NCBI GenBank assembly: GCA_029262755.1
Contig: JAJCYU010000306.1
Location: 1 to 35,922 of the forward strand
DNA: 35,922 nucleotides
Reading direction: 5' to 3'
From: Anaerolineae bacterium
GTDB taxonomy: Bacteria; Chloroflexota; Anaerolineae; Epilineales; Epilineaceae
A program made the position numbers and the translations under genes. Below, piece after piece: positions 3,078-32,874 of this stretch. Under the pieces are notes generated by a model. It had not been told where the DNA came from. It did no database searches and saw nothing but the letters and a program-made list of their open reading frames with translations. Every line of letters begins with the position of its first letter. Positions within the stretch are counted from its first letter, which is position 1.

Positions 3078-3291
3078 GGGGCCATCCTCCTTGGGGACCG
3101 GAGTGGGGAGTTGCAATCGGCGCCGTCCGGACTCGGCGCTCGGGACTATGGAACGCACGGCGACGCGGCGCAAGGTCGGCGGGGCAACAGGGTGACTGCG
3201 GCAACAGGGTGGCTGCGCAAAGCTCGCTGGAACAGGAACGGTCGCTCCCCCTACTCGTAGCCGTCCACTTCGACATTCGCACCCGCCGTGC

Positions 3292-5130: not shown

Positions 5131-5423
5131 GGGGGACTCCGTCTCATGAACACGTCGAATCGAGCCCGGCCAGCGTATCCCACTCCCTACGTTGCCGCGA
5201 GTGCAGGATGCGCTCGCGTGAAGTAGAGGCCCCTGCGAACGCCGGAACCCCGGGCGGAGGCGTCGAGTAGGCGCGAGTACACGTGTTACCCTTGGTGGGT
5301 GGGCACGCCATCGCGGCGGAGATCGGCACGTCGCCAAGCATCGCCGCCAAAACACCGCCGCGCGAAGCGCCAAGGACCCGCGGCCACGCGACGTGGCGCC
5401 ATCCCCATCACGAGGTCTCCCCC

Positions 5424-8400: not shown

Positions 8401-8450
8401 CGTTCACCACCGACGTATGGTTGTGGCGCAAGGGGCTGGACGAGACGTAG
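5424..8450 (+). CDS. Secreted LVIVD-repeat (beta-propeller) + CotH-family kinase fusion
   Basis: Start ATG 5424 (GAGG RBS), signal peptide. LVIVD-type repeats (GLEIFDVRDPAKP, GVRIVDASDP, GLIVLDIADP), a Thr/Pro linker, then CotH motifs VRKKG, KPSLKIKFD, LNN, HWDAY..NRNNYY and IPWGVD. Confidence 0.85.
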   Translation: MRRLPAQIRCAIIVSALLAIARAPAARADRVLEQGAALPSAQPALAITVVGDLAYIPAHARGVHIVDIGDTAAPRLLSTTPTLGAAYDVAVSDDGLLYVAAWSAGLEIFDVRDPAKPVRLGGAPTRANAHAVALLADRDDGPYVVTGDWAAAVFDAGDPEHGLLVFDASDPVSPVQVGRLDTPGWAGEIAVRGNRLYVADATGGVRIVDASDPRALREIGSAPTDVRAYGIDLDGEHQRALVADNEGGLIVLDIADPSNIRRLGAMTTGQAVYGVAWDAGLHAAWLATAAGGGPADPGSVVLAALDDSGVPSEQARLPTAQRAWGIAADGAGGAWVAATGLGLLGVRARADGTGEPTATGVATGQATGMATSPSTATATPTSTPTTGGSTATPSSTPTIRPSASPPATPIPGPEPLPVPIHLPLAMRGERPLAHPRPAPTRDATRPDPTPRIATATVTLAATPVVEESDALFARDALRDVRITLPADDWERLRHETRTMRDIFGAEECATAPVEHPYTWYTATVSVDGLRLSNVAVRKKGFLGSVVADKPSLKIKFDRDLPAQRMFGMRRMTLNNANVDPGLVRQCLVYDLFRAAGVVAPRCNFASVRVNGRSYGVYVHLESIKKPFLARHFSDDGGTLYEGTRADFRADWAVSFEQKTNAERDDRADIAALVAALDAPDVELMARLEPLVDLESFYRFWAMEALVGHWDAYANNRNNYYVYQDPESERFHFIPWGVDGSLRRHEISGQGSPASVSARAHLARRLYLHPQGRARYVATMELLLAEVWDEDALIASINRMAALVQSGVPAGQREAHSTDLVVLRTFVRARRARIVRELRRGGADWDDPPSIAPCRWSIGTLQATFAAVYGGASGRNISLTFTDLDGVETPLEDVGIAATDGAFRTWPRYPTLVINGAFSRDTEFFARGRRMQLFVFVARERFGPGSVALDGDTAFGWAYRQPSDPRWIFPALLWDGALTLDAASAVPGAPVNGTFTTDVWLWRKGLDET

Positions 8451-11849: not shown

Positions 11850-13736
11850 CTAGTCCCTTGGGATCTTCGGGCACTCCACGATCTTGCCCGCGATCTGGCG
11901 GTAGATGGCTTGCAGATCCTCGCCGTCCGGCGCGAAGAAGAAGTCCGTGGACTCCGTAGCCGCGTCGGAGAGCAACGACATCAGCAGATCGTCCGGTAGA
12001 CCCAGACCGATCGTGAAGACGCGCGTGTCGGCCTCCTTGGCCGCCGTTGCGAACTTCAGCACCGTGCATTCCTGATTCGGACACTCGGGATGCGCGCTAC
12101 CATCGCCAAAGGGCACCCGGTTGGGCAAGCCGTCCGTGAGCAGGATCATCACCCCGGCGTTGTCCGCGATGCGCGGGCCGGCGTCCAGCACGGCCTGACC
12201 CTGCTGCAACGCGAGGTCCAGCCGCGTACCCTGCGCCACACCGTCCACGAGGCTCTCAAGCCCGGCGTTGGCTGCCGCGCGGTCATGGCCCATCGGGAAG
12301 GCCGTCCAGGCCGTGTCGTTGAAGCCGACGATGCCGACTTGATCGCGACCCAGATCGCCGCCCTCCAAGTCGAGCTGGTCGATGAACTGACCGGCCGCCC
12401 GAAGCGCGTCGTCGAGCTTCACACCGCTGCGCGTCTCGCGATACATGGAGGTCGACATGTCGAGCACCAGCACGACGTCGGCGTAGACTGACTCGGGCAC
12501 GCACTCTTCGTTCATGATCATCGGGATGTAGATGGGGCCCGGCGTCGGGGTCGGTGTTGGCGTCGGCGTCGATGTGTTGGTCGGCGTCGGCTCCGGCGTG
12601 TCGGTTGGGACAGGCGTTGGGGTTGCGGATGGCGGTGGCGGCGTGAAACACGGCACCGTGAGCGTGATCGTCGTGGGATCCAGCTCCGACTCTTGAACCT
12701 TGCGGCCGCTGTCGGTGACCTGCATCCCGCCCTGAATCTCGTAGACGCCCAGCGGTTCCGCGCGCACCTCGTAGGAGATCGCGACGGATTCTCCCGCCTC
12801 GATGTCTTCCCACAGCCAGCGGAGCGTCGTCGACATCCCCTCGCCGCCATCCACCTCGGAAGGCGCGGGGTCCAGGGATCCGTCGACGATCGTAAGCTCG
12901 GGCGGCAGGACTTGTGTCAGGCTCATCTCGCGCAGCCCGATGTCGTCTTGGAAGGCCTGAACCTCATAGCGCACGTAGTTGCGCATCCGGTTGTCGTGCG
13001 CTTCGGAGTAGTAGCGCCGTGGGTCGGGCATCTTCTTGGTGGCTTGGCAATAGTCGGCGTTCGTCTCCGGGCAGCCGGCGATCAGCGTAATGTCGTCGCG
13101 CGTGATCATGCGCGCCGCGCTCAACATGTTGCGCTCGTCCTCGACAAAGATGCTCTTCGTGCTGGCGAAGAAGATCACCATCTCGCAAGGCTCTTCCGCA
13201 TGCTTGCGGCGCTCCGTCTCCAGTTCCTTGAGTGCCGCGCGCGCCGCACCTTCGAAGTCACCATGCGGATCGTGGCCGAATACAGGTCGCCGCAGCGCGG
13301 ACCGCGCCGTGGACAATCGGTCCGTCATGCGGGTCTCGACCTTGACCGTGTTGCTGTCGTAGCTGATGACGGCGACGCGGACATCCATGCCCTTGATGCG
13401 CTCGATCTCCTGGAACGCGTTGACGGACTCCTGCACCATCCAATCGGCCTGGAAGGCCTTGTTGACCTGAATGAAGACGATGTTCAGCCCGCCTGGGCAG
13501 ACTGGGCATTGCGGCACGGCCTCCACCATCACGCGCTGCGCGCATGCGATCTCCGTGTCGGTTATCGCGGTGTCGGCATAGCCCTGACAGCCCGCATCGC
13601 GCGAGTTGCCCTGCGCTTCGGGTCGGGCCTCGACGGTACTGGAAGTGGGCGTTGCTATGCCCAAAACGAAGGCGACGGCGGCCAGGAACAGGCCGGCCAC
13701 CATGGCGGATAGAAAGCGACGTGTCGTACCGGTCAT
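11850..13736 (-). CDS. Secreted double-VWA protein (paralogue of 3292-5130; first VWA degenerate)
   Basis: GGAGGAG RBS and signal peptide. C-terminal VWA has DMSTS...GTRLD...LTDG; N-terminal VWA-like region lacks DxSxS. PT linker plus GPIYIPMIMNEEC. Confidence 0.88.
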   Translation of the reverse strand: MTGTTRRFLSAMVAGLFLAAVAFVLGIATPTSSTVEARPEAQGNSRDAGCQGYADTAITDTEIACAQRVMVEAVPQCPVCPGGLNIVFIQVNKAFQADWMVQESVNAFQEIERIKGMDVRVAVISYDSNTVKVETRMTDRLSTARSALRRPVFGHDPHGDFEGAARAALKELETERRKHAEEPCEMVIFFASTKSIFVEDERNMLSAARMITRDDITLIAGCPETNADYCQATKKMPDPRRYYSEAHDNRMRNYVRYEVQAFQDDIGLREMSLTQVLPPELTIVDGSLDPAPSEVDGGEGMSTTLRWLWEDIEAGESVAISYEVRAEPLGVYEIQGGMQVTDSGRKVQESELDPTTITLTVPCFTPPPPSATPTPVPTDTPEPTPTNTSTPTPTPTPTPGPIYIPMIMNEECVPESVYADVVLVLDMSTSMYRETRSGVKLDDALRAAGQFIDQLDLEGGDLGRDQVGIVGFNDTAWTAFPMGHDRAAANAGLESLVDGVAQGTRLDLALQQGQAVLDAGPRIADNAGVMILLTDGLPNRVPFGDGSAHPECPNQECTVLKFATAAKEADTRVFTIGLGLPDDLLMSLLSDAATESTDFFFAPDGEDLQAIYRQIAGKIVECPKIPRD

Positions 13737-13809
13737 ACGAGTACTCCTCCCTCGGTTTCCCGTTGCCGCGCAGGGTCTGGAGGACGCCGCACGGATGCTG
13801 TCGGCGCAG

Positions 13810-15501
13810 TTAGTCGGCGCTCAGCGCGTGATTGCGCAGGCCTAGGGGCAGGTAGATCGCTACGGGAGGATTCCCCGGAATCTCGGTAGCGATCGGCGTT
13901 TGCGGCGTCGCGGTCGGCGACGGAGTCGGCGCATTGGGGGTCGCTGTTGCCTCAACGCCCGCTGTCGGCGTCGGTGAGGGCAATGTCGCCGGAGGCAGAA
14001 GCGGGCCGAAGACGAGCTCGACGCGGCCGGCGAACTCGTCGCCGTCTGGACTGCTGGCCGCGTCCCGCGAAAGGACTACATCGTCGACGCCATCGCCGTT
14101 CATGTCGTGGACGAACCATTCGGCCTGGTCGTGCTCCAGGGGCACCTCGAACACGGCGTCGCCCAACGTCGAGCCCTTCTTGTCACCCACGGCGACCGTG
14201 TCCCCGACGATGGGGCCGCGCAGCGCCGCGTAGCGATACGGGACCTCGTCCCCCGCGCGGTGGGGCAGCTCGAAGACCAGATCGAGCGTGCCGTCCGCGT
14301 CCAGGTCTCCGGCGGCGTAGTACATCTCGTCGACGAAGCGCAGCGGGCAGGCGGCGGCGGACGCGTTTGCCGGCATCGAAAGAGCGGCGGACCAAGCGCA
14401 GTAGCCCGCGATCTGGTGGCCCACACCGTATTCGAAGACCGCTTCGAGCGCACCGTCGCCGTCGAGGTCGCGGGCGTCGACGGCGCGCACGCCGCCGCGC
14501 TCCACGTCGTGAGTGAAGCGCATATCGGCCGCGTCGGCTACGTCGGCCTTGGACGGCCAATCATCGCGGCCACGTAAGAGGGCGGCGTAGCTGCCTCCGA
14601 ATTGGGTCAGGTCGGAACCCGTCACGAGGACGTCATCGACGCCGTCACCGTCAAAGTCGCCCGCGAAGGCCTGGAAGCAGCCCATGGCTAGCCCCGCCTC
14701 CCCCGTGAGCACGACGTGCGCGGCACCGCCGCGAAGGCTGATATTTTCCGGGCCGTCCTCGGGGGACAGGTAGAGGCGCAGGGTGCCGGTTTGGCCTTCT
14801 TCGAACTCCTGCCCGCGCTCCACGTGGCACGACACGATGGCGATGTCTTGGTCGCCGTCGCCGTCGAAGTCGCCGGCAAGGACCTGCTCCGCCATCGGGT
14901 TCCGTTCGGCCAGATGCGGCTCTTGGGGAACCTGGTCCTGCGTGATCGAGAACGCGCCCCGGACACGTTTGATGTCGGGCGTCGACCAATCCGAGCCACC
15001 GAGATAGACCTTGATCTCTTCCTTGCGCACTTCCGATGCGCTTCGGGTCTGTTCGAAGGCCGCCAAGTCTTCGATCCCGTCTCCATCGGCGTCGAAGAAG
15101 GCGCGGAAGCCGTAGAACGATGCTCCGTCGCGGCTGCTCATGTCGTTGCCGATGGTCGGCAGGCCGAGCGACTCCATCCCCTCGATGTCGCCTAGACCGA
15201 CCGGCTCCGCCGGCCAATCGGCGCGCCCGAACAGGATGTCTTGCCGATCCTGCTGGACGCCGCGCAGCCGGACGGCGTAGTCGAGCAGCGCGTCGGCCGC
15301 GCCGTCAGCGTTGACGTCGGCCACCGCGCGCACGGCGAGGTAGGTATTCTCCGCGGGGCCATACAGCACGACGTCCGGCACCAGCGCGATGCCGGCCTCC
15401 GGGGCCGCGGCGAGTGGGCTCGCCGCGTGGCGGCGATCCACGGATAGCACGAACGACGCGGACAGGGCGACGAGCGCGATCACGAGGTTCGCTCGTCGCA
15501 T
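13810..15501 (-). CDS. Secreted FG-GAP / integrin-alpha-like repeat protein with PT linker and AIYLP tail
   Basis: Start re-called at ATG 15501 (MRRANLVIALVAL signal peptide). Repeats ADVNADG, GDFDGDG, GDLDADG, DMNGDG and AGRVELVFG; ends AIYLPLGLRNHALSAD. Confidence 0.82.
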   Translation of the reverse strand: MRRANLVIALVALSASFVLSVDRRHAASPLAAAPEAGIALVPDVVLYGPAENTYLAVRAVADVNADGAADALLDYAVRLRGVQQDRQDILFGRADWPAEPVGLGDIEGMESLGLPTIGNDMSSRDGASFYGFRAFFDADGDGIEDLAAFEQTRSASEVRKEEIKVYLGGSDWSTPDIKRVRGAFSITQDQVPQEPHLAERNPMAEQVLAGDFDGDGDQDIAIVSCHVERGQEFEEGQTGTLRLYLSPEDGPENISLRGGAAHVVLTGEAGLAMGCFQAFAGDFDGDGVDDVLVTGSDLTQFGGSYAALLRGRDDWPSKADVADAADMRFTHDVERGGVRAVDARDLDGDGALEAVFEYGVGHQIAGYCAWSAALSMPANASAAACPLRFVDEMYYAAGDLDADGTLDLVFELPHRAGDEVPYRYAALRGPIVGDTVAVGDKKGSTLGDAVFEVPLEHDQAEWFVHDMNGDGVDDVVLSRDAASSPDGDEFAGRVELVFGPLLPPATLPSPTPTAGVEATATPNAPTPSPTATPQTPIATEIPGNPPVAIYLPLGLRNHALSAD

Positions 15502-15798
15502 GCCCGCTTGACCGATGACGCATGGCAAGGACCACGGCCCAAACAGCGACCGCGTCATCCTCGCCCATTGAAACCGGGGCGAGAGCAAGTGGCGCATGGC
15601 AGTTCCGGCGCAATTCGGGCGACCTAGGCCTCCGCCCCACGATGGGGGGATCAGACCGCCGTTTCGGGACCCGCGCAATCCGTACAACCCGCGCACCTTA
15701 TCATTTTGGACACCCTGTCGCAACGAAATGTGCTTCGCTTCGAGCGCGCACGCCGTGTAGCCTTCCCGGGAGTCACGTCCACTCCATCTCGAGGCCGC

Positions 15799-17247
15799 AT
15801 GATCGATCCTTCGACGTCCCCGTCCGAACGAACCCCTGTCGTCGTCAACCGCGACATCCTGGCTATGGAATACGCGGTGCGCGGTGCGATACCCGCTCGC
15901 GCGGCCGCCATGGCTGCCGCGGGCCGGCACGTGATCTGGTGCAACATCGGCAACCCGCAGGCTCTGGGCCAGCGGCCGATCACGTGGTATCGCCAGGTAC
16001 TCAGCGTCGCGGAAGACCACGCGCGCCTGGCTCGCGAGCGCACGTGGGCGGCGCAGCCGTCGCCGGCTCCCGACTTCTTCGCGCTCCCGGACGACGTCCT
16101 GGACACGGCCGCGCACTTCCTGGACGCGATCGGCACGGGGATGGGCGCCTATACCGACAGCACCGGCCCCCGCTTCATTCGCGAGGCGATCGCCGCCTTC
16201 ATCGACGCCCGCGACAACGTGACGCCGGAGCACGGGCTGCCCGCCGACCCGGACCAGATCTTCCTGACCAACGGCGCAAGCGAAGGCGCCAAGTACCTCC
16301 TCGAGATGCTGATCGACGATCCGGCGGATGGCATTCTGATCCCCGTTCCGCAATACCCGCTCTACTCGGCGAGCATCCGCAAGGCGGGCGGAGCCCAGGT
16401 CGATTACGTGCTGGACGAGGAGGGCGGCTGGACCGTCAGCCGCACCTTGCTCGACAAGGCTATGGCCGACGCCGCGCGGCGCGGGGTCCGGGTCAAGGCC
16501 ATGGTGGTGATCAACCCCGGCAACCCCACGGGCGGGGTGATGGATGAAGAGACGATCGAGACGGTGATCGCCTTCGCCGCCGAGCACGAGCTCATCTTGA
16601 TCGCCGATGAGGTCTACCAAGAGAACACCTACGGCGCGCCGTTCCAGTCCTTCGCGAAGGTCCTCGGACGGCGCGCCGTGCCGCTTGCGAGCTTGCACAG
16701 CACATCGAAGGGCTTCATCGGCGAGTGCGGGCATCGGGGCGGTTATCTGGAGATGCGCAATCCACCGCTCGTCGCCGGAAGCGACACAGGCTTCTCGGAC
16801 GTGCTGCGCAAGCTCGCGTCGGTCAGCCTCTGCCCGAATACCGGCGGCCAGCTACTCACGTGGCTCATGGTGAGCCCGCCGGCAGAAGGCGCGCCTTCCC
16901 ACGCCGGCTTCGTGGCCGAGCGCACACATATCCTCGACGAGCTACACGACAAGGCGATCCGGATTCGCGACGCCCTGCACGAGATGGAGGGCGTGCGCTG
17001 CTTCGGCCGGACCGGAGCGATGTACCTCTTCCCGCGGCTCGACACGCTGCCGGAGGGCACGTCGGACTTCGACTACTGCATGCGCCTGTTGGAGGAGACC
17101 GGACTCTGCACGGTCAACGGCGCGGGCTTCGGCCAGGCTGCCGGCACCCAGCATCTGCGGATCGCATTCCTGCCGCCCAAGGAAATGCTGGACGAAGTCC
17201 TGCCGGAGTGGGTGCGCTTCCACAATGACTACGTGGGCGCACGCTAG
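15799..17247 (+). CDS. PLP-dependent class I/II aminotransferase, alanine aminotransferase (GPT/AlaAT eukaryote-like subfamily)
   Basis: Motifs MEYAVRG, CNIGNPQALGQRPITWYRQVLS, GAYTDS.G, LTNGASEG, PVPQYPLYSA, INPGNPTG, ADEVYQEN and HSTSKG(PLP Lys)..GECGHRGGY. Start ATG 15799 after GAGG. Confidence 0.9.
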   Translation: MIDPSTSPSERTPVVVNRDILAMEYAVRGAIPARAAAMAAAGRHVIWCNIGNPQALGQRPITWYRQVLSVAEDHARLARERTWAAQPSPAPDFFALPDDVLDTAAHFLDAIGTGMGAYTDSTGPRFIREAIAAFIDARDNVTPEHGLPADPDQIFLTNGASEGAKYLLEMLIDDPADGILIPVPQYPLYSASIRKAGGAQVDYVLDEEGGWTVSRTLLDKAMADAARRGVRVKAMVVINPGNPTGGVMDEETIETVIAFAAEHELILIADEVYQENTYGAPFQSFAKVLGRRAVPLASLHSTSKGFIGECGHRGGYLEMRNPPLVAGSDTGFSDVLRKLASVSLCPNTGGQLLTWLMVSPPAEGAPSHAGFVAERTHILDELHDKAIRIRDALHEMEGVRCFGRTGAMYLFPRLDTLPEGTSDFDYCMRLLEETGLCTVNGAGFGQAAGTQHLRIAFLPPKEMLDEVLPEWVRFHNDYVGAR

Positions 17248-19127: not shown

Positions 19128-20393
19128 ATGGATCCCAGCCCGCGCCACGGCGCCTTCCGCCATATCCCGTTCATGGGCGTGATCTACGTCGTCGACGAGG
19201 CGCACAAGCTCGGCTTCTACAACGGCCATCCGGACTGGTGCAACCTCGGCCAGGGCCAGCCCGAGGTCGGCCCGATGGAGGGTGCGCCGCCGCGCTATGC
19301 GCGCATCGACATGCAGCCCGGCGATCACGCCTATGGCCCCGTCGGCGGTACGGACGAACTGCGCGACGTGATCGCGGCCCACTACAACCGGCTGTACCGG
19401 CAGGGCAAAGCTTCGCAGTACACGCGGGACAACGTCAGCGTGGCCTCGGGTGGACGGCTCATGCTCAAGCGCACTTTCGCGGCCCTCGGCGCGGTGAACC
19501 TCGGCTACCAGATTCCCGACTACACCGCCTATCAGGACCTGATCGATTACCACAGCCATCGCTTCACGCCCGTCTTGTTGCCGGCGCGCGAGGAGGACGG
19601 CTTCGCGATTCCCACCTCGGACTTCGAGCGTGCCGTGCGAACCTTGGGCCTCGGCGCGTTCGTGGTGAGCAACCCCTGCAACCCGACGGGCAACGTCATC
19701 CAGGGGGACGAACTCGCGACCTATATGCGCATCGGGCGCGCGCACGATTGCACGTTGATCTTCGACGAGTTCTACTCGCACTTCATCTACGATCCGGCCG
19801 GCGGCCCGGCCGCGGGCCCCGTCTCCGCGGCGGCGCTGGTGGAGGACGTCGAAACCGACCGCGTGCTGCTGATCGACGGTCTGACCAAGTGCTTCCGCTA
19901 TCCCGGCTGGCGCTTGGGCTGGGCGGTAGGTCCGACCGACATGATCCAGATGCTCGACCGCGCCGCGAGCGCCGTGGACGGCGGCCCGAGCCGGCCGGTG
20001 CAACGCGCGGCCATCGACGTGCTGGAGCCCGGCCGCGCCGATCAGGAGACCACGGCCCTACGCACTATGTTCGCCCGCAAGCGCGATCTCATGGTGGACG
20101 GCCTGTCGGCGATGGGCATCCGCTGCGCACGCGAGACCGAGAGCACCTTCTACACGTGGGCCTCGCTGGCCGAGCTACCGGAGCCGCTGCGCGACGGCCA
20201 CGCCTTCTTCCGTGCTGCGCTCCAGGAGAAGGTCATGACGGTCCCCGGCGTGTTCTTCGACGTGAACCCCGGCGGCCGGCGCACCGGCCCCTCGCCCTTC
20301 GCGCAGTGGACGCGCTTCTCCTTCGGCCCCGACTACGCGACGGTGGAGGAAGGGCTCAGTCGGCTCCGCCGGGTGATTCAAGCGGCCGGCTGA
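19128..20393 (+). CDS. PLP-dependent class I/II aminotransferase (aspartate aminotransferase-like)
   Basis: Motifs NLGQGQPE, SNPCNPTG, IFDEFY and DGLTK..RYPGWRLGW. Confidence 0.9.
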   Translation: MDPSPRHGAFRHIPFMGVIYVVDEAHKLGFYNGHPDWCNLGQGQPEVGPMEGAPPRYARIDMQPGDHAYGPVGGTDELRDVIAAHYNRLYRQGKASQYTRDNVSVASGGRLMLKRTFAALGAVNLGYQIPDYTAYQDLIDYHSHRFTPVLLPAREEDGFAIPTSDFERAVRTLGLGAFVVSNPCNPTGNVIQGDELATYMRIGRAHDCTLIFDEFYSHFIYDPAGGPAAGPVSAAALVEDVETDRVLLIDGLTKCFRYPGWRLGWAVGPTDMIQMLDRAASAVDGGPSRPVQRAAIDVLEPGRADQETTALRTMFARKRDLMVDGLSAMGIRCARETESTFYTWASLAELPEPLRDGHAFFRAALQEKVMTVPGVFFDVNPGGRRTGPSPFAQWTRFSFGPDYATVEEGLSRLRRVIQAAG

Positions 20394-21768
20394 GCGGCGC
20401 CGAGGATTGCCAGAAGGTGAGCGCCCAGACCCCGATCAGCCAGGTCAAGGCGCCGGCCATCGCGAGACCGGAGAGCACCATGAGCCACGGAAACACGTCA
20501 CCGACAAACGCGAACTTGTCGGGATTCGCCGCCCGGTAACGGATGAGGCCGCGCGTGGCACCGTGCGTGATCCAAGTCACCCAGAAGATGCCGATGGACC
20601 AATTGAGCGTCGGCACCGTCCACGCGACGCCTTGGCCGCGCACGACCGGGTGCTCGCGTCCCGCGACGGCGCGCAGCACGTAGGCCAGGCAGGCCAGCAG
20701 GATCATCGTGTCGATGCCGAGCATGCTACCCATGCTGTGCGCGACGATCACGTGCGTGCCGTGCACGAGCGCGTTGAGCGGCGGAATGGCGATGACCATG
20801 GCCAGGAAGAGCATCAAGAAGATCCACAGGGTTGTCGAGCGCGCGAAGCCGTCCGCCATCCGCAAATCCTTCTCTTCCAGGGGCTTCGCGCGCGTCAAGC
20901 CTGCGACGTCCATGCTGACCTTCGCCAGGATCGCGATCTCCAACATGCTCACGATGAACGAGATCCAGTTGATCCAAGAGCTCTGCGGCAGGTGATAGGT
21001 ATGGTGGCCGTAGTTGGTGAGGGTGTTGAGCATGCCGACGGCGAACAAGGAGAAGGCCAACCGGCAGAAGGCATAGCCGAAGTCGCGACGAATGCGACAG
21101 CCGATGTACATCAGGCAGCCATAGGCCAGCTGGTTGAAGGCACCCACCAACACTCCGTTGGAGCGCCATTGGACCTGCAGGTCCTTGATGGGCCGCATCC
21201 CGACCGCGTCGAGCATCCACAGGAAGCTCTCGCCATAGGCCAGCAGAAACAAGGGGATGGAGACCATCCACATGATCACGAAAACGGGCCGTTTGCGCGG
21301 ATCGATGCCGACGCGGCCGTAGAGATTCCAGCCGAAGAGCACCCAGCCGGCGATGATCAGCAGCGCATAGGGCCATTCGTGGGCCCCGTACTCGCGGCCG
21401 GTAAAGCGTCCCGCGAGGTTCGATACGAGGATCCCCGCACCGGCCAGCGACCACAAGACCATCTGTACTCGGAAGCGCAGCCGCTCCGCGGCACCAAAGG
21501 GCCCGTGCTCGCTGAGAAGGTAGTAGTAGACGACCGCAACACCGCCCAAGAAGATCCACGCGAACGCGAACGACTCATGGATCGGCCGAAAGTGCTGCAG
21601 CGTGAAGCCCGCTTCGCGCAGCGTGGCCTCGAAGGGCGTATAGGCGGTCGTGGCGAGGACGCCGAACGCCACCGTAATCGCGACCGAGAGCAGCGCGAGC
21701 AGGACTTGGAAGACCAAGAGGCGGCGATCTTCGCCCTCGATCGCGTAGCTCGGTTCGCGCTCGCTCAT
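20356..21768 (-). CDS. Heme-copper oxidase superfamily subunit I, cNOR NorB-like but with a divergent active site (likely auto-annotated as cbb3-type/NO reductase large subunit)
   Basis: 470-aa polytopic membrane protein whose ATG 21768 overlaps the upstream TGA. Motifs RPIH64, GREY, GH255H256, LE277 and HGT..VAH344SM346. Confidence 0.85.
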   Translation of the reverse strand: MSEREPSYAIEGEDRRLLVFQVLLALLSVAITVAFGVLATTAYTPFEATLREAGFTLQHFRPIHESFAFAWIFLGGVAVVYYYLLSEHGPFGAAERLRFRVQMVLWSLAGAGILVSNLAGRFTGREYGAHEWPYALLIIAGWVLFGWNLYGRVGIDPRKRPVFVIMWMVSIPLFLLAYGESFLWMLDAVGMRPIKDLQVQWRSNGVLVGAFNQLAYGCLMYIGCRIRRDFGYAFCRLAFSLFAVGMLNTLTNYGHHTYHLPQSSWINWISFIVSMLEIAILAKVSMDVAGLTRAKPLEEKDLRMADGFARSTTLWIFLMLFLAMVIAIPPLNALVHGTHVIVAHSMGSMLGIDTMILLACLAYVLRAVAGREHPVVRGQGVAWTVPTLNWSIGIFWVTWITHGATRGLIRYRAANPDKFAFVGDVFPWLMVLSGLAMAGALTWLIGVWALTFWQSSAPLSRPLESPGGAD

Positions 21769-22580
21769 CGTCCGTACTCCCACCAGGGTAGCCCGCTCAG
21801 CCGGAAGGGCTCGCGGTCGATGAGCTCCGCGCTGTAGGGCCGTAGCCCGTCGCGTTGTTCGCGCAGGAAGGTCAGCATCGCGGAGAGGTTTTCGACCTCG
21901 CCCTCCGACAGCTCGTAGCGCGGCATCGTCAGCGGGCCGCGCGCGACGGCCGACGCGACGGCGTCCGGCGCGAGATCGACGTCGCCCGTCAGATGATCGA
22001 CGGCGCCGCCGGTGCCCAACGCGAATGGTATGTGGCACGCGCCGCATGCGTTCGTCTCCCACACGGCCAGGCCCTCCGTCACCGCCGCGGGCACCACGGC
22101 ACCCGTGTCCACAGCCCACCGGTCGAGCAGCGTTCGGTGGAGCGTGAGCGGCGAGACCTTGGGCGTCACGGCGAGGGGCGGCAGTTGGCCCGTGCCCGTA
22201 CGGTTAACGGCACGCAGATAGGCCAGGATCGCGCTGCGCTCGTCGGCATCGAATTCGAAAGCCGGCATCGGCGCCTCGCCCACCGTCAGGATCGCCTCGA
22301 AGTCCTCGTCGTCGCGCGCCTCGGTGACCTGGTTGGTCAGGTCGGGACCGAGAAAGCCGCCGAAGCCGTAGATCTGGTGACAGGCCTGGCAGTTGTTCGA
22401 TCGCCAGAGGGCAAGGCCCTGCCGCTCTTGTGCGTTCAACGGCGGCACGTCATCCACCCGACCATGATCCGTGTACGCAATCCACGATACGCCGAAATAG
22501 ATTAGCCACAGCACCACCATCACCGGCAGGCAGAACCGGCGGGCGGGCGGGTGTTCGTGAGGGCTGGCGATCGGCGGCAT
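21765..22580 (-). CDS. Membrane-anchored diheme cytochrome c, NorC-like subunit
   Basis: N-terminal TM helix, then G..LW..NNCQACHQIYG.GG.LGPDLT...MPAF (NorC-like). A second domain carries CGACH...MPRY. Translationally coupled (ATGA) to the NorB-like gene. Confidence 0.85.
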   Translation of the reverse strand: MPPIASPHEHPPARRFCLPVMVVLWLIYFGVSWIAYTDHGRVDDVPPLNAQERQGLALWRSNNCQACHQIYGFGGFLGPDLTNQVTEARDDEDFEAILTVGEAPMPAFEFDADERSAILAYLRAVNRTGTGQLPPLAVTPKVSPLTLHRTLLDRWAVDTGAVVPAAVTEGLAVWETNACGACHIPFALGTGGAVDHLTGDVDLAPDAVASAVARGPLTMPRYELSEGEVENLSAMLTFLREQRDGLRPYSAELIDREPFRLSGLPWWEYGR

Positions 22581-22822
22581 GAGTGGGTCCGGTCCGGTGG
22601 CTTCGGAAGGCTCGCCCGGAACGCGCGTTGGCGGCCCGATCGGCGCGGCATGCTAGCCCGGAGGCTTTCCGACGGTCAAACCTTTCTTGGGTGGGGAGGG
22701 GACGCGGAGTCGATCGTATTGTCCCACAGCAGGTGATTGGCCGCTCGTCGGAAGCACGTTATGCTCGACGACCGATTCGCTGCCGCGCGTCGAGGCGAAG
22801 TCCGAGGCCGCACTGGAGGTCC

Positions 22823-23973: not shown

Positions 23974-25425
23974 CTACGCGCGCGGCGCGCCATCGACCGG
24001 GAGTCGCAACGCGAACGTCGCCCCGCCGTGCGTCGGCTCGACGGCCGCCAACGTGCCGCCGTGCGCCCGGGCGACCGCACGCGCGACCGCTAGGCCCAGC
24101 CCCGCGCCGCCCACGTCGCGGCCGCGCGCCTCGTCGAGGCGGACGAAGCGCTCGAACACGCGCTCCCGATCGGCGGGCGCGATCCCGGGGCCGTCGTCGC
24201 TCACGAGGATGTCTACCGTGGATGGCGCGGCGGGGTCGGCGTAGGGCGATGCGCTGGATTGCACGTCCAGCCATACGCCGCGCTGCGCGTGGCGCGCCGC
24301 GTTGTCCAGCAGGTTGCGCAGCGCGCGCCGCAGCAGCGCGGGATCGACCGTGAGCGTAGGCGCATCCGCGACGTCCGCGTGCACCGGAAGGCCGTGGCCG
24401 GACTCCGTGGCGGACGCCTCTTCGCGCAGCAGGTCCGCGAGGGCGACGTCGCGCGGATGGAGGGTCAGACCGCGCTCGTCGTGCCGCGCCAGGGTCAGCA
24501 GGTCGTCCGCGAGCCGCTCCAGGCGCAGGTCTTCGCGCAGCAGGTCGCGCACAAGCTCGCCTTGCTCCACGGCCTCGGGATAGTCGCGCGCCACCTCGAG
24601 CATCGTCCGAATGGCGGCGATCGGGCTGCGCAGCTCGTGCGACGCGTCCGCGACGAAGCGGCGTCGTTGCTCGGTGGAGGCGCGGATGCGCGTGATGAGG
24701 TCGTTGAGCGTCAGCGCCAGCCGCTGCACTTCGTCGCGCGTCGCCGGCACGGGTACGCCCGTCGCGAGGTCGTCCGCGCTGATGGCCGCGGCCCGCGCCC
24801 GGATTGCCTCCACGGGACGCAGCGTACGGCCTACCAAGTGCCATACGAGCGCCGCGGTAGCGAGCAGGATCACGGGCAACGCGAGGGCCAGCAGGGGCGC
24901 GAGGACTTCTGTCGCGCGTTCGACAGGGCCGAGGCCGGCAACGACGATGACCGTGGCCGGCCCTGCGGACGTCTCGACGCCGTAGGCCGCCATCCACGCG
25001 GGCTCGAGATCGGCATCGGCGCCGGCGTCGTCCCGATCTTCGTCCTCGATCTCCGGCCACTCGATCCGCCGGCTGACGCTCGCGCCCGGCACGAGGCGGG
25101 GTCCGGCGAGCGGTGGTGCGCCGGCCAGGTCGGGGCTGGCGGCGAGCACCTGCTCGTCCGGGCCGATGACCTGGACGATGAGGGCTTCCCCGCGGCTGGG
25201 AAGGACGGCGGGCAGCGCACCGCTCTCCGCCAGCACGCCGATGTCGCGTGCGCGCGTCTCCGCGGTCGTGCGCACGGCGTCGGTGAGGGCATCGGCCGTA
25301 GCCCATAGCAGGCCGATGCCGCCCAGTGTCAGGACGACGCCGACCACGAGCACGGCCGCGAGCGTCGTGCGAGCGCGCAGGCCGGCCGCTAGATCCCGCC
25401 AACGCGACAAGCGATCAGCCCCCAT
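23974..25425 (-). CDS. HAMP-domain sensor histidine kinase
   Basis: Two TM helices and a HAMP segment (RDEVQRLA.TLN). H-box FVADASHELRSP, N-box NLLDNA, G1 DDGPG, G2 GAGLGL. Confidence 0.93.
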   Translation of the reverse strand: MGADRLSRWRDLAAGLRARTTLAAVLVVGVVLTLGGIGLLWATADALTDAVRTTAETRARDIGVLAESGALPAVLPSRGEALIVQVIGPDEQVLAASPDLAGAPPLAGPRLVPGASVSRRIEWPEIEDEDRDDAGADADLEPAWMAAYGVETSAGPATVIVVAGLGPVERATEVLAPLLALALPVILLATAALVWHLVGRTLRPVEAIRARAAAISADDLATGVPVPATRDEVQRLALTLNDLITRIRASTEQRRRFVADASHELRSPIAAIRTMLEVARDYPEAVEQGELVRDLLREDLRLERLADDLLTLARHDERGLTLHPRDVALADLLREEASATESGHGLPVHADVADAPTLTVDPALLRRALRNLLDNAARHAQRGVWLDVQSSASPYADPAAPSTVDILVSDDGPGIAPADRERVFERFVRLDEARGRDVGGAGLGLAVARAVARAHGGTLAAVEPTHGGATFALRLPVDGAPRA

Positions 25426-26092
25426 CGGCCGCCAGCAAGTAGCCCGCGCCGCGGACCGTCTTGAGCGCGCACCGCCCGAAGGGGGCGTCGATCTTGCGGC
25501 GGAGTTGGCCGACGTAGACCTCGACGATGTTCGGGCCGCCCTCGTAGCGCCAGTCCCAGACGTGCTCGATGATGCGCGTCTTGCTCAGCACGACATCCGG
25601 ATGTCGCATCAAGTACTCGAGCAAGGCGTACTCACGCGGGGTCAGCTCGATGTCGGCCTCGCAGCGGCGCACGACGCGCCGCGCGGGGTCGAGCACGAGG
25701 TCGCCCGCGGCGAGCACCGCCGGCCGCTCGTGCACCGTGCGGCGTAGCAGCGCCCGAATGCGCGCCAAGAGCACGACGAAGGAGAAGGGCTTGGTCAGGT
25801 AGTCGTCGGCGCCGGTGTCAAGGCCCTCAGCCTCGTCATGCTCGCCGTCCTTGGCCGTGAGCATGAGGATCGGCATCCAGCGCTCCGCGGCGCGCAGATC
25901 GGCGCACACGAGGTAGCCGTTGCGTTTGGGCAGCATGATGTCGAGGATCACCAAGTCGTACTCGATCTCGGTGGCCAGCCACAGACCTTGCTCACCGTCT
26001 TCGGCCAGATCCACCGCGAAGCCCTCGGCCTCCAGCCCGCGCCGCAGATAGCCACCGAGGGTGACCTCGTCCTCGACCACCAAGATGCGCAC
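25415..26092 (-). CDS. OmpR/PhoB-family response regulator
   Basis: Motifs RILVVEDE, LDIMLP, MLTA, GADDYLTKPF and winged helix LTPREY...NIVEVYV..LRRKID...TVRGAGY. Start GTG 26092 after GGAGG (alternatives 26098, 26131). Confidence 0.93.
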   Translation of the reverse strand: MRILVVEDEVTLGGYLRRGLEAEGFAVDLAEDGEQGLWLATEIEYDLVILDIMLPKRNGYLVCADLRAAERWMPILMLTAKDGEHDEAEGLDTGADDYLTKPFSFVVLLARIRALLRRTVHERPAVLAAGDLVLDPARRVVRRCEADIELTPREYALLEYLMRHPDVVLSKTRIIEHVWDWRYEGGPNIVEVYVGQLRRKIDAPFGRCALKTVRGAGYLLAADGG

Positions 26093-26255
26093 GCTCACCG
26101 ACCTCCGCTTGGACTTGAGCTTCGTTTCCATTGTGGATTCCGCACGACCGTAGGGTCATGAAACCGATGGTCGTTCAGCACTCCAACCTTCGTTCCGCCG
26201 TGGGTTGGACGGAAACCATCGTACACGGAAGAAGCCATCGTATACGGAGTCGGAG

Positions 26256-26380: not shown

Positions 26381-26884
26381 TCAGTCGTCGTCCCGCTCTA
26401 CCTCGACCACCGCGCCGGTCTCGGCATCGACCTCGACCTCGTAGCCGCTGTCGAAGCTGATTTCGTAGAGCAGCCGGCCATTCTCGCGCTCCAACTCGAC
26501 CGAGCCGGCCACGCCGTCCACCTTCGCGCTTGCGATAGCGATGGCTTCCTCGGCGCTGATGGTGGCTTCGGACGCCAGGTGCGCGCCCTCTTCCTCATCG
26601 GCGCCGTCGTCGTCGCCGTCGTTCTCGTTTTCGTGTTCCACAGCGTCGTCGTCCTGCGTGGTGATCGCGACATCGGACACGTCGCCTGGTGCGGATGAGG
26701 CCGCGTCGGCGGGTCCGGCATTCACGTTCACGTTCTCGACGGCCGCGCTGCTGGTCGTCGTGCGATCGGCCGTTGTGCTATCGGCCGAGGCCGGATCGTT
26801 GCCGAAGGTGCCGCCGACCACCATGGCGGCCGCTATGAACGCAACGACGATCGTCGTTGCGGCAAGCACAGGCTTGATGCGCAT
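26381..26884 (-). CDS. Secreted PepSY domain protein
   Basis: AGGAG RBS, signal peptide and acidic linker, then ISAEEAIAIA...SVELERENGRLLYEI...EVEVDAETGAV. Confidence 0.9.
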   Translation of the reverse strand: MRIKPVLAATTIVVAFIAAAMVVGGTFGNDPASADSTTADRTTTSSAAVENVNVNAGPADAASSAPGDVSDVAITTQDDDAVEHENENDGDDDGADEEEGAHLASEATISAEEAIAIASAKVDGVAGSVELERENGRLLYEISFDSGYEVEVDAETGAVVEVERDDD

Positions 26885-31293: not shown

Positions 31294-32874
31294 ATGTATG
31301 CCACTTTGCGCCGGACGAGAGCGTGGTTGCCTGCCGCGGCGATGACGTTGATCCTGCTGCCCGCCGCGTGCTCGGACACCGATGGGTCGCGCGAAAGTCC
31401 GAGTCCGGACGAAGCGCAGCGCGAGAACGCCGTCGTCGTCGATGGCGTGGATTCCACGGTCGGCGCGGGGGACGGCGCCGGGTCGGCCGGGACCGGCGCG
31501 CGGGACGACGCGTGGGGCGTCACCCGCTTCTACATCGAGCTCACGGAGGACGACATCGAGGTGCAGTCCTTCGTCGACGGTGCCCGGTGGCAGGGGCTGG
31601 AGATTGCGAGTCCCGCCGGCTACACGATCTACGCCACGGAAGCGGACTCGTATCTGGGCGCCCAGGGTCTGAGCGAGTTGCAGATCGACGGTTGGCCGAG
31701 CCACTTCCCCGTAGTCGGCGATCCAGCGCACCTAGAGATCGAATCGGTCGATGAATACCTTGCTCTGTTTCCGGCGGGCACCTACTACTTTCACGGCCGG
31801 CGCGTCGCGGGCGGCACGCTCTCCGGCGAGGCCCGCTTCACGCACGACCTTCCGGGCTTGCCCGAGATCCTCTCGCCGCCCGATGAGGACGAGCTCGCGG
31901 TGCTTGACCCCGAAGACGCCGTCATCCGCTGGGAGCCGGTCACCGAGACCTTTGACGGCAAGGAGCCCATCGAGATCGTCGAGTACGAGGTCATCGTCGA
32001 GCAGGTGGAGCCATTCCGGAAGCTGAGCATCCACGTACCGGGCGACCGTACGAGCCTGCGCGTGCCGCGCGCCTTCCTCGAGCAAGACGCGGTCTACGAC
32101 GTCGAGCTCGTGGCCATCGAAGCGAGCGACAACCAGACGATCGCGGCTTCCGCGTTCCGGACTTCGGCCGACGTGGAAGCGCCCGAAGAGACCGATCCGC
32201 TACCCGGCGCGCTGAAAGCCGCCGCGTTCTATGTCGAGCTCAGCGAGGACGACATCGAGATCCAGACCTTCACCGATGGCTCCCGATGGGACCTGCTCGA
32301 GATCGAAGGCCCCTCCGGCGACTTGGTCCTGCGCACGGAGGCTAGCTCCTTCATGGCGGACCAGGGTCTTAGCGAGCTGACGGTCGACGGCTGGCCTAGC
32401 CACTTCCCCATCGAGGGCGATCCCGAGCACCTCGAGATTCCCTCGATCGACACCTTTCTCTCGGCGTTCACCGAGGGCACGTATCGCTTCCGTGCCGTCA
32501 CCGTGGACGGCGAGGAGCTGACGGGCGCCGCAACGTTCACGCACGATCTGCCCGCCCTGCCGGTGATCACCGCACCCACGGTAGGCGACGAACCCGACGT
32601 GCTGGACCGGGACGATGTGACGATCACGTGGCAGCCGGTCACGCGCTCCTTCGACGGCGAAGACGCCGTCGAGATCGTCACCTACGAGGTAGTCGTCGAG
32701 CAGGTGGAGCCCTTCCGCAAGCTGAGCATCCATCTACCCGCGTCCGCCACAAGCGTCCGCGTGCCGGTAGCGTTCCTCGAGGCCGGACGCGAATACGAGG
32801 TCGAGGTCATGGCCATCGAGCGCAGCGGTAATCAGACATTTGCGGTCACGGAGTTCGCGACGGCGGAGCGGTAG
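31294..32874 (+). CDS. Acidic lipoprotein made of two ~200-aa internal repeats (each ending in an FN3-like beta-sandwich)
   Basis: GAGGAG RBS and lipobox-like LLPAAC. Repeats FY(I/V)EL(T/S)EDDIE.Q.F.DG.RW...GWPSHFP..GDP.HLEI...FTHDLP.LP...YEV.VEQVEPFRKLSIH. Confidence 0.8.
   Translation: MYATLRRTRAWLPAAAMTLILLPAACSDTDGSRESPSPDEAQRENAVVVDGVDSTVGAGDGAGSAGTGARDDAWGVTRFYIELTEDDIEVQSFVDGARWQGLEIASPAGYTIYATEADSYLGAQGLSELQIDGWPSHFPVVGDPAHLEIESVDEYLALFPAGTYYFHGRRVAGGTLSGEARFTHDLPGLPEILSPPDEDELAVLDPEDAVIRWEPVTETFDGKEPIEIVEYEVIVEQVEPFRKLSIHVPGDRTSLRVPRAFLEQDAVYDVELVAIEASDNQTIAASAFRTSADVEAPEETDPLPGALKAAAFYVELSEDDIEIQTFTDGSRWDLLEIEGPSGDLVLRTEASSFMADQGLSELTVDGWPSHFPIEGDPEHLEIPSIDTFLSAFTEGTYRFRAVTVDGEELTGAATFTHDLPALPVITAPTVGDEPDVLDRDDVTITWQPVTRSFDGEDAVEIVTYEVVVEQVEPFRKLSIHLPASATSVRVPVAFLEAGREYEVEVMAIERSGNQTFAVTEFATAER

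What the first reader, a model, noticed from the sequence alone, without database searches (positions are those of the whole stretch)
20356..22580. cNOR-like respiratory enzyme with a rebuilt catalytic site and His/Met low-spin heme
Seen: a coupled norC-norB-like pair. Established (from memory of Pseudomonas aeruginosa NorB): heme b ligands H60/H349, heme b3 ligand H347, FeB ligands H207/E211/H258/H259, plus E215 and E280. From helix VI onward this protein lines up with a constant -3 offset. It keeps H255/H256, E277 and H344, and H64 matches H60. It shows H207->N204, E211->V208, E215->N212 and H349->M346 (motifs QWRSNGVLVGAFNQL and VAHSMG). Two of four non-heme-metal ligands are therefore lost and the electron-transfer heme would be His/Met-ligated. 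The frame is intact, and no norQ/norD, nir or ccoOQP genes are in the window. Inference: this is neither a standard NO reductase nor an O2 reductase, but a heme-copper-superfamily member with different chemistry, such as N2O reduction, NO dismutation/detoxification or another N/S substrate. I recall similar uncharacterised cNOR offshoots in phylogenomic surveys but cannot verify the match.
Basis: partly seen in the sequence, partly recalled or inferred. Interest (0 to 1): 0.88.

Follow-up and report, generated by a model that had tools for sequence, protein, structure and literature searches.

The report
cNOR-like haem reductase, 'N2Ored' family
This is an intact two-gene operon for a membrane haem enzyme related to nitric oxide reductase but with a rebuilt active site; it belongs to a family that has already been named as a possible new nitrous oxide reductase but has never been tested biochemically.

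Summary
On the minus strand, a 271-aa dihaem cytochrome c (21765-22580) overlaps by ATGA a 470-aa haem-copper-superfamily subunit I (20356-21768). The catalytic subunit keeps H64, H255/H256, E277 and H344. It has no His or Glu in helix VI and has Met346 where cNOR has its second haem-b histidine. This is not decay: M346 is in 83 of 84 homologues, and G205 (74) or D205 (10) fill that column. The family is monophyletic and sister to cNOR+qNOR. It contains MAG71575.1, a sequence that Murali et al. 2024 (PNAS) list as 'N2Ored', a putative nitrous oxide reductase family with no biochemistry. The window protein is therefore a new member of a published but untested family. In its own clade only the cytochrome c gene is a conserved neighbour. 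Most of the 50 holder genomes I checked lack nirK/nirS (44 of 50) and nosZ (36 of 50). In the Bacteroidota clade the operon sits beside an Rrf2 regulator, qNOR and an Fe-S repair (RIC) gene. The substrate (N2O, NO or another) remains open.

The parts
21765..22580 (-). Subunit II: membrane-anchored dihaem cytochrome c (271 aa), with an N-terminal TM helix, a NorC/CcoO-like first haem domain and a second c-type domain
   Evidence: Pfam Cytochrome_CBB3 9e-18 with 2 stretches. C64, C67, H68, M105, C179, C182, H183, M219, W266 and E268 are invariant in 48 homologues. AF2 model pLDDT 82.7. Weak Foldseek matches to NorC 3o0r_C (E 0.047, TMt 0.53) and to dihaem QcrC 7qhm_C (E 0.012).
22377..22391 (-). 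First haem c motif, CQACH
22032..22046 (-). Second haem c motif, CGACH
20356..21768 (-). Subunit I: 12-helix haem-copper-superfamily catalytic subunit (470 aa), N2Ored family
   Evidence: PF00115 2.1e-14. AF2 pLDDT 93.1, pTM 0.92, 12 long helices. Foldseek cbb3 3mk7_A TM 0.77/0.78 and cNOR 3o0r_B 0.77/0.81. Tree placement.
21577..21579 (-). H64, first axial ligand of the low-spin haem b (cNOR H60)
   Evidence: (84 of 84)
21133..21171 (-). Helix VI segment QWRSNGVLVGAFN: the superfamily's metal-ligand His is replaced by G205, cNOR's ligand Glu by G209 and E215 by N212. R202 is K in 69 of 84 homologues.
21001..21006 (-). H255-H256, the two retained non-haem-metal ligands (cNOR H258/H259)
   Evidence: (84 and 83 of 84)
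20938..20940 (-). E277 (cNOR E280)
   Evidence: (73 of 84)
20731..20739 (-). H344-S-M346: proximal His of the catalytic haem b3, and Met in place of the second haem-b His
   Evidence: (84 and 83 of 84)
21391..21393 (-). E126 of the GREY motif, aligned with the Glu of cNOR 'GREFLE' and cbb3 'KEY' (recalled as the Ca2+-site Glu)
   Evidence: (83 of 84)
22650..22679 (-). Promoter-like site TTGACC-18-TAGCAT, about 70 nt upstream of the cytochrome c start
   Evidence: 1 site found; 0.2 expected in shuffles; a consensus match only
21765..21780 (-). GGAG Shine-Dalgarno-like site and the ATGA stop/start overlap that couples the two genes

Best explanation
The two genes encode a functional, cytochrome-c-dependent terminal reductase of the 'N2Ored' family, the sister group of cNOR/qNOR in the haem-copper superfamily. 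Shown: family membership, an intact and conserved fold, a conserved partner gene, and a family-wide altered set of ligand residues. Inferred wiring: a periplasmic donor passes electrons to the two haems c of subunit II, then to a His64/Met346 low-spin haem b (probably of raised potential), then to a high-spin haem b3 on His344. The distal pocket is rebuilt. Only two of the usual three His remain (H255/H256). Gly205 opens the space where the helix-VI His sat, and a conserved Lys/Arg202, Asn212 and Glu277 line the pocket. Any non-haem metal would have at most a 2-His(+Glu277) site. The periplasm-side residues that cNOR uses (E126, D196) are kept, so protons probably come from the periplasm. Substrate (inference only): a small nitrogen oxide. 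I put N2O to N2, as Murali et al. proposed, at about 0.35; NO reduction or detoxification at about 0.2; something else at about 0.45. In this organism it stands alone, without nir, nar or nosZ found, so it would act on externally supplied substrate.
For: Family and conservation: 329 hits, the nearest 53% identical; 275 cluster representatives among 1.84 billion; 219 genome loci. The window protein keeps every near-invariant residue of 84 homologues. Tree: the family (57 rows) is one clade (SH-aLRT 98), sister to cNOR+qNOR (98), and both together are sister to cbb3 (99). The window sits in a 13-row subclade (99) with P0007. P0007 carries accession MAG71575.1, which is listed as N2Ored in Dataset S4. 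Dataset S6 lists N2Ored in Vicinamibacterales UBA2161, Longimicrobiales and Bacteroidota, the same taxa I found. Partner: a cytochrome c gene lies directly upstream on the same strand in 79 of 80 loci (the 80th is cut by the contig end), and 75 of 80 such ORFs have two CXXCH. Fold. Link to nitrogen oxides: in 80 metagenome loci of the Bacteroidota clade the operon lies beside an Rrf2-family regulator (50), qNOR (13) and an Fe-S repair RIC protein (13; TIGR03652 246.6 bits, cut-off 204.7). nosZ lies 3 kb downstream on the same strand in 2 of 80 loci of the window's clade. Of the 6 nirS/nirK-holding genomes among the 50, 4 lack nosZ.
Against: There is no biochemical datum for any member. In the window's clade nothing but the cytochrome c gene is a conserved neighbour (best other: a HAMP histidine kinase in 11 of 80 loci). 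Of the 50 holder genomes, 14 also have NosZ, so it is not a simple NosZ replacement. 44 lack nirS/nirK, and 27 have none of nosZ, nirK, nirS, cNOR or qNOR with my queries. The window's own genome shows no nirK, nirS or narG over cut-off, but it is only 84% complete and the nosZ probe had no positive control. The Rrf2 regulator is not specifically NsrR (33 bits, cut-off 182). I had no model coordinates, so where K/R202, E277 and N212 sit relative to haem b3 is inferred from alignment and helix periodicity only. The G205/K202/E277 versus D205/H202/A277 pattern is a single split on the tree, not repeated covariation.
Confidence: 0.6

Rival explanations
1. It is an ordinary NO reductase (a detoxifying cNOR variant). 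It couples two NO at haem b3 plus a non-haem iron held by H255, H256 and E277, despite the missing His and Glu.
For: It is the sister group of cNOR/qNOR. E277, E126 and D196 are kept. The Bacteroidota relatives lie in an NO-stress-like neighbourhood with RIC and an Rrf2 regulator. 42 of 50 holders have no cNOR/qNOR found with my query, so the role would not be redundant there.
Against: The helix-VI His and the ligand Glu that define the FeB site are absent in all 84 homologues: position 205 is G or D, and 209 is G or A. In 13 of 80 Bacteroidota loci a true qNOR lies next door, which argues for a different job. All 6 nirS/nirK holders already have another NOR candidate, either a B-type enzyme or cNOR.
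Confidence: 0.2
2. It reduces an oxygen species (a low-turnover O2 reductase or a membrane cytochrome c peroxidase) or another non-nitrogen substrate.
For: Most holders are not denitrifiers. A high-potential His/Met haem and a dihaem c entry suit a high-potential acceptor. The fold is as close to cbb3 as to cNOR.
Against: There is no active-site Tyr: the cbb3 cross-link Tyr column holds N248, and Dataset S5 marks N2Ored as lacking it. Only two of the three CuB His remain. The neighbours in the Bacteroidota clade point to NO stress rather than O2.
Confidence: 0.15
3. It is a decaying or non-catalytic relic of a NOR gene.
For: It lacks two of the six histidines that Ettwig et al. 2012 call the signature of the superfamily (PMC3413370, passages). 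Distribution among relatives is patchy, 1 of 30. The window protein has the longest end branch in its subclade, 0.64.
Against: The frame is intact, translational coupling is present and the model is confident. The 'lost' positions are themselves conserved (M346 in 83 of 84, G205 in 74 of 84, N212 in 80 of 84), and many family-specific residues are invariant across phyla. The partner gene is conserved in 79 of 80 loci.
Confidence: 0.03

Closest known systems
'N2O red / N2Ored' HCO family of Murali, Hemp, Gennis et al. 2024 (PNAS; PMC11214002)
   Same: Same family. One of the paper's tree leaves (MAG71575.1 = P0007) is 51% identical and falls in the same 13-row subclade. The taxa match. It is close to cNOR and lacks the active-site Tyr.
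   Different: The main text gives no active-site description for this family; I saw passages only, and the SI Appendix PDF could not be read. The window protein is a divergent member (at most 53% identity) from the Planctomycetota/Gemmatimonadota/Acidobacteriota clade, which has a dihaem subunit II. The Bacteroidota clade, which includes the cultured Flavobacterium and Cloacibacterium holders in Dataset S4, has a 135-aa monohaem partner.
cNOR (NorBC), e.g. P. aeruginosa 3o0r and R. denitrificans 4xyd
   Same: 12-helix fold (TM 0.77-0.81). It is the best sequence match among solved structures (4xyd_A 2.8e-28). It shares a c-type cytochrome partner with a TM anchor, and H60/H258/H259/E280/H347 equivalents, the GRE(F/Y) Glu and D196.
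   Different: No helix-VI His and no ligand Glu; Met instead of the second haem-b His; a dihaem 271-aa partner; no norQ/norD nearby; it falls outside the cNOR+qNOR clade.
cbb3 oxidase (CcoN)
   Same: Top Foldseek match (3mk7_A, E 2.6e-10). It shares the 'VQW' helix-VI motif and the 'KEY/REY' motif. The dihaem c input recalls CcoP.
   Different: G205 replaces the CuB His; N248 replaces the cross-linked Tyr; no ccoO/Q/P; ccoN HMM 20.7 bits against a cut-off of 583.
nNOR (Murali et al. 2024)
   Same: A His/Met-ligated low-spin haem, which the paper says likely raises its potential by about 150 mV.
   Different: nNOR is related to the B family, has a CuA-type subunit and keeps the full cNOR-type active site. 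The window enzyme is on the C/NOR branch with a cytochrome c subunit and a depleted site.
gNOR and NOD (putative NO dismutase)
   Same: These are the other superfamily members that replace one metal-ligand His: Asp in gNOR and Asn in NOD. The H202/D205 subclade of this family looks gNOR-like at position 205.
   Different: NOD is a qNOR derivative with a fused N-terminal domain and no electron entry. Here a separate cytochrome c partner is conserved, and the His is replaced by Gly.

Membership tests
N2Ored (Murali et al. 2024) | Groups with sequences the authors assign to the family | tested here: met
   P0007 carries accession MAG71575.1, an N2Ored leaf in Dataset S4. It is 51% identical at E 6.5e-140 and shares a subclade with support 99.
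N2Ored (Murali et al. 2024) | [quoted passage not shown] | tested here: met
   The family is sister to cNOR+qNOR (98), and both are sister to cbb3 (99). The tree has 83 rows, rooted on 2 A-family sequences. Only one cNOR reference was available.
N2Ored (Murali et al. 2024) | No active-site cross-linked Tyr | tested here: met
   N248 is in the cbb3 Tyr column. Dataset S5 marks N2Ored with '-' for that Tyr.
N2Ored (Murali et al. 2024) | N2O-reducing activity (proposed, never shown) | not testable with these tools
   The paper says only that it 'might serve' as a sulfide- and acetylene-insensitive N2O reductase.
cNOR (NorB) | FeB site of three His plus one Glu | tested here: not met
   G205 and G209 stand at the His and Glu columns. 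Only H255/H256 remain.
cNOR (NorB) | Bis-His low-spin haem b | tested here: not met
   M346 is at the H349 column, in 83 of 84 homologues.
cNOR (NorB) | Monohaem NorC partner and norQ/norD accessory genes | tested here: not met
   The partner is dihaem, 271 aa. No CbbQ/NorQ or NorD-type hit was found among the window ORFs.
cbb3 oxidase (CcoN) | CuB with three His, a cross-linked Tyr, and CcoO/CcoP subunits | tested here: not met
   G205 and N248. TIGR00780 scores 20.7 bits, cut-off 583. No FixO/CcoP genes.
nNOR | Descent from the B family with a CuA-type subunit II | tested here: not met
   The tree places the B-like sequences outside the C/NOR branch (99). Subunit II is a cytochrome c. The shared His/Met feature is met.
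NOD | qNOR-type fused N-terminal domain, His to Asn, no external electron input | tested here: not met
   The protein is 470 aa without that domain. It falls outside the qNOR clade. The cytochrome c partner is conserved in 79 of 80 loci. The features are taken from PMC3413370.

The most novel reading that the evidence does not exclude
The family is a copper-independent, NosZ-independent nitrous oxide reductase. N2O would be reduced at a haem b3 whose distal side holds a Lys/Arg, Asn and Glu pocket with at most a 2-His metal site, fed through a high-potential His/Met haem. If so, Planctomycetota, Gemmatimonadota, Vicinamibacterales and Bacteroidota that carry no nosZ (36 of the 50 holder genomes here) would be unrecognised N2O sinks, missed by all nosZ-based surveys. 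The H202/D205 subclade would then be a second solution that rebuilds a 3-His+carboxylate site in a shifted register.
Probability: 0.3. Interest if true: 0.9.

Novelty: new member of a known kind. Interest (0 to 1): 0.5.

Why it matters
NosZ is the only established biological sink for N2O. A second, unrelated N2O reductase would change greenhouse-gas budgets and gene-based surveys. The family also breaks two of the six histidines long treated as the signature of the haem-copper superfamily, so its chemistry is of mechanistic interest whatever the substrate turns out to be. This window adds a divergent member. The comparisons made for it add three further points: a clade-specific dihaem subunit, a family-wide His/Met haem, and a nitrogen-oxide-stress neighbourhood in the Bacteroidota relatives. 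That clade includes cultured holders (Flavobacterium, Cloacibacterium) in which the function could be tested. The existence of the family and the N2O idea are already published, which limits the novelty.

Tried and rejected
- Single-sequence phmmer of the subunit against PDB sequences gave no match at E<=1; the 84-sequence profile was needed.
- tblastn of the protein against 72,556 plasmids, meant to fetch annotated norB/fixN references, gave no match. References were instead taken from holder genomes and labelled by PDB similarity.
- My first ORF extraction picked spurious long frames in the high-GC loci. It was redone by the frame of the match.
- PF18764 as a nosZ probe of the window's own genome found nothing, but it rang in no control genome either, so it is uninformative.
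- Complex prediction for subunit I with subunit II was not available, so contact between the subunits rests on gene order only.
- Foldseek of the cytochrome c model gave no match at E<=0.001.
- Sequencing runs: no RNA holder was listed; one DNA holder has 0.95 of the words and is probably the source.
- Earlier findings of this scan: none near this place.
- Literature searches for other treatments of the family found only Murali et al. and papers citing its NOR families.
- Considered and rejected: nNOR membership (wrong branch), NOD (an electron-input subunit is present), and recent decay (the substitutions are conserved).
- The VWA proteins at 3292-5373 and 11850-13736 were considered as NorD-like and rejected. 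They have no NorD-type family hit, sit beside FG-GAP/ASPIC genes and have no NorQ nearby.
Full report
**What is in the window.**
On the minus strand there is a 271-aa ORF (21765-22580) followed by a 470-aa ORF (20356-21768, counting from the ATG at 21768). The stop of the first overlaps the start of the second (ATGA), and a GGAG lies 9 nt upstream. The first protein has two CXXCH motifs and two Pfam Cytochrome_CBB3 stretches. The second matches PF00115 (COX1) at 2.1e-14, and the cbb3 CcoN model at only 20.7 bits against a cut-off of 583. A promoter-like site lies about 70 nt upstream of the first gene (a consensus match only). The pair is flanked by an aminotransferase gene, convergent with its 3' end overlapping by 38 nt, and by a divergent DinB-family gene. 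None of 28 window ORFs scanned is a nir, nos, norQ/D or ccoOQP gene. The window is contig C306 of a 5.06-Mb, 428-contig, 84%-complete assembly, which has only one other PF00115 gene, an A-type oxidase.

**The residues.**
A profile of 84 homologues aligned to solved structures gives R. denitrificans NorB 2.8e-28, P. aeruginosa NorB 8.3e-21 and cbb3 CcoN about 1e-20. Against P. aeruginosa NorB the pairs are:
- H60 with H64
- H258/H259 with H255/H256
- E280 with E277
- H347 with H344
- H349 with M346

HMMER (against both NorB and CcoN) and MAFFT L-INS-i with cNOR, qNOR and cbb3 sequences put the metal-ligand His opposite G205. MAFFT also puts cNOR's ligand Glu opposite G209 and E215 opposite N212. 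Under either register, residues 200-212 (QWRSNGVLVGAFN) hold no His, Glu or Asp. The cbb3 cross-link Tyr column holds N248. The protein therefore has four of the six histidines that Ettwig et al. call the signature of the superfamily (PMC3413370, passages).

**Not decay: a conserved family.**
- The word-indexed search found 329 relatives, the nearest only 53% identical.
- The exhaustive search of 1.84 billion cluster representatives found 275 at E<=1e-3.
- A scan of 185,579 species genomes found 219 loci, mostly in MAGs of Planctomycetota, Gemmatimonadota and Acidobacteriota.
- In 84 aligned homologues H64, H255, H344, E180 and Y127 are invariant. M346 is in 83, H256 in 83, N212 in 80, Q200 in 79 and W201 in 81.
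- Position 205 is G in 74 and D in 10. Position 204 is variable (Y, N, C, L and others) and never His.
- The 10 D205 sequences have H202 (9 of 10) and A or G at 277. The G205 sequences have K/R202 and E277 (73 of 74 each). This is one split on the tree, so it is suggestive only. It hints that the D205 subclade rebuilds a His+carboxylate pair in helix VI, while the window's clade relies on E277 and a Lys/Arg.

**Fold.**
AlphaFold2 on the 84-row alignment gives pLDDT 93.1 and pTM 0.92 with 12 long helices. Foldseek's best solved matches are cbb3 CcoN (3mk7_A, TM 0.77/0.78) and cNOR NorB (4xyd_A and 3o0r_B, 0.77/0.81). I had no access to the coordinates, so distances in the active site could not be measured.

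**Phylogeny.**
Reference sequences came from genomes that also hold the family. They were labelled by similarity to solved structures or by NCBIfam:
- one cNOR (1.6e-109 to 3o0r_B)
- qNOR-type frames (one checked, 3.1e-129 to 3ayf_A)
- cbb3 CcoN (six over the TIGR00780 cut-off; one divergent)
- A-family CtaD and B-like enzymes

The tree used IQ-TREE (LG+G4, short search, SH-aLRT) on 83 rows: 57 of the 91 family sequences I held, plus 26 references. The family is one clade (98), sister to cNOR+qNOR (98), and together they are sister to cbb3 (99). B-like and A-family sequences fall outside. There are three subclades:
- the H202/D205 group (8 rows)
- a Bacteroidota group (19 rows)
- a Planctomycetota/Gemmatimonadota/Acidobacteriota group (30 rows), which holds the window protein

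The window protein has the longest end branch of its 13-row subclade, 0.64.

**Already in print.**
Murali et al. [quoted passage not shown] They cite the membrane-bound N2O reductase of Flexibacter canadensis and count 293 GTDB genomes. Dataset S4 lists MAG71575.1 (UBA2161 sp002328835) as an N2Ored leaf. That accession belongs to my P0007, which is 51% identical to the window protein and lies in its subclade. Dataset S6 lists N2Ored in Vicinamibacterales, Longimicrobiales, Chitinophagaceae and Flavobacterium, matching. The main-text passages I saw give no active-site description or His/Met remark for this family; His/Met is mentioned for nNOR. The SI Appendix could not be read. Three literature searches found no other treatment and no biochemistry.

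**The partner subunit.**
In 79 of 80 loci of the window's clade a cytochrome c gene lies directly upstream on the same strand (the 80th locus starts at the contig end). 75 of the 80 such ORFs have two CXXCH. In 48 aligned homologues both haem motifs, both Met (M105, M219), a 'GFGGFLGPDLTN' block after the first haem motif and a C-terminal 'PW(F/W)EY' are conserved. The model (pLDDT 82.7) has an N-terminal TM helix. Foldseek gives only weak matches, to NorC (3o0r_C, E 0.047, TMt 0.53) and dihaem QcrC (E 0.012).

**Context and co-occurrence, window's clade.**
Apart from the cytochrome c gene, no neighbour within 7 kb is conserved. The commonest are a HAMP histidine kinase (11 of 80 loci) and a sigma-54 activator (5 of 80). 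The larger clusters are shadow ORFs over the two genes. nosZ lies within 10 kb in 2 of 80 loci, from two closely related Phycisphaerales.

I took 50 of the 80 holder genomes. The counts among these 50:

| Gene | Genomes of 50 |
|---|---|
| nosZ | 14 (11 over the clade-II cut-off, 3 at about 490 bits) |
| nirS | 4 |
| nirK | 1 over cut-off, plus 1 at 198 bits |
| cNOR | 1 |
| qNOR-type frames | 7 |
| ccoN over cut-off | 6 |

27 of the 50 have none of nosZ, nirK, nirS, cNOR or qNOR. These are MAGs of unknown completeness, and no background frequency was measured.

Among 30 relatives of the window's genome (same family or order), 1 holds a member, so the gene is patchy in this lineage. The window's own genome shows no nirK, nirS or narG over cut-off.

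**Context in the Bacteroidota clade.**
This clade gave 1,693 hits at 1e-40. I analysed 80 metagenome loci. The operon there differs:
- a 135-aa monohaem cytochrome c upstream (73 of 80 loci)
- downstream, a QueD/PTPS-like gene (45) and an Rrf2-family regulator (50)
- divergently, a DGC-domain protein (26), an unknown 602-aa protein (26), a YhbP/PNPOx-like protein (25), qNOR (13), an Fe-S repair RIC protein over its cut-off (13) and NDH-2 (10)

Many of these loci are cut short, so the counts are minima. The Rrf2 protein cannot be assigned to NsrR. This neighbourhood is the best, though indirect, link between the family and nitrogen-oxide stress.

**How it most likely works.**
The shown and inferred steps are separated in the Best explanation section. 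In short, it is a cytochrome-c-fed reductase with this electron path: two haems c, then a His/Met haem b, then haem b3. Its distal site has lost the helix-VI His and the Glu and gained a conserved Lys/Arg, Asn and Gly pocket. A dedicated electron-input subunit argues against a dismutase. The missing Tyr and third His argue against an O2 reductase. The missing FeB ligands, together with qNOR next door in some relatives, argue against a classical NOR. N2O reduction, as already proposed in print, remains the leading but untested idea. I put it at about 0.3-0.35.

**Verdict.**
The object is a new, divergent member of a published but biochemically untested family, so novelty is moderate and interest is about 0.5. 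The interest would be high if the N2O-reductase reading proved true.

Noticed in passing
L116, L119, L121 (qNOR-type frames of holder genomes G007, G016, G037): In these three qNOR-like ORFs (about 800 aa) the second of the paired metal-ligand His is Asn ('SHNFYW' in the alignment). This is the substitution that Ettwig et al. 2012 describe for putative NO dismutases. They form their own subclade with support 100.
   Followed up: partly
G007 contig C49 (L097, L112; also L013): In one Planctomycetia MAG, nirS (31546-32706), a B-like HCO gene (35799-37109) and the N2Ored-type gene (46211-47383) lie on one contig within 16 kb. This is one of the few cases where the family sits near denitrification genes.
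   Followed up: no
Proteins P0214-P0256 (H202/D205 subclade): A subclade found in Thermoanaerobaculia and Gammaproteobacteria MAGs. It has 'QWH..D' in helix VI and Ala at the E277 column, which could be a rebuilt His+carboxylate metal site in a shifted register.
   Followed up: partly
L134-L213 (Bacteroidota-clade loci): The operon there carries a QueD/6-pyruvoyl-tetrahydropterin-synthase-like gene directly downstream of the HCO gene in 45 of 80 loci (85-86 bits, under the QueD cut-off of 89). This is an unexplained partner for a respiratory enzyme.
   Followed up: partly
window 23974-26131 (-): A two-component system lies 1.4 kb upstream of the operon. Its best families are the heavy-metal (CztS/SilS/CopS and CztR/SilR/CopR) sensors and regulators, both under their cut-offs (190 against 293 bits, and 222 against 279 bits). 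A PepSY protein follows at 26381-26884. No link to the operon was tested.
   Followed up: no
window 1038-5373 and 11850-16734 (-), and 5283-8450 (+): An FG-GAP/ASPIC-UnbV protein is paired with a C-terminal VWA protein at two places in the window, and a 1055-aa LVIVD-repeat plus CotH-kinase protein lies between them.
   Followed up: no
window 19128-20393 (+): This is a class I/II aminotransferase whose best NCBIfam match is the guanitoxin GntC cyclodehydratase model (147.5 bits, far under the cut-off of 415). Its 3' end overlaps the HCO gene's 3' end by 38 nt.
   Followed up: no
Protein P0166: This family member has a long branch (1.48) and several family-invariant residues changed (H256D, E277H, N332H, H336Q). 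It may be a degenerate copy.
   Followed up: no
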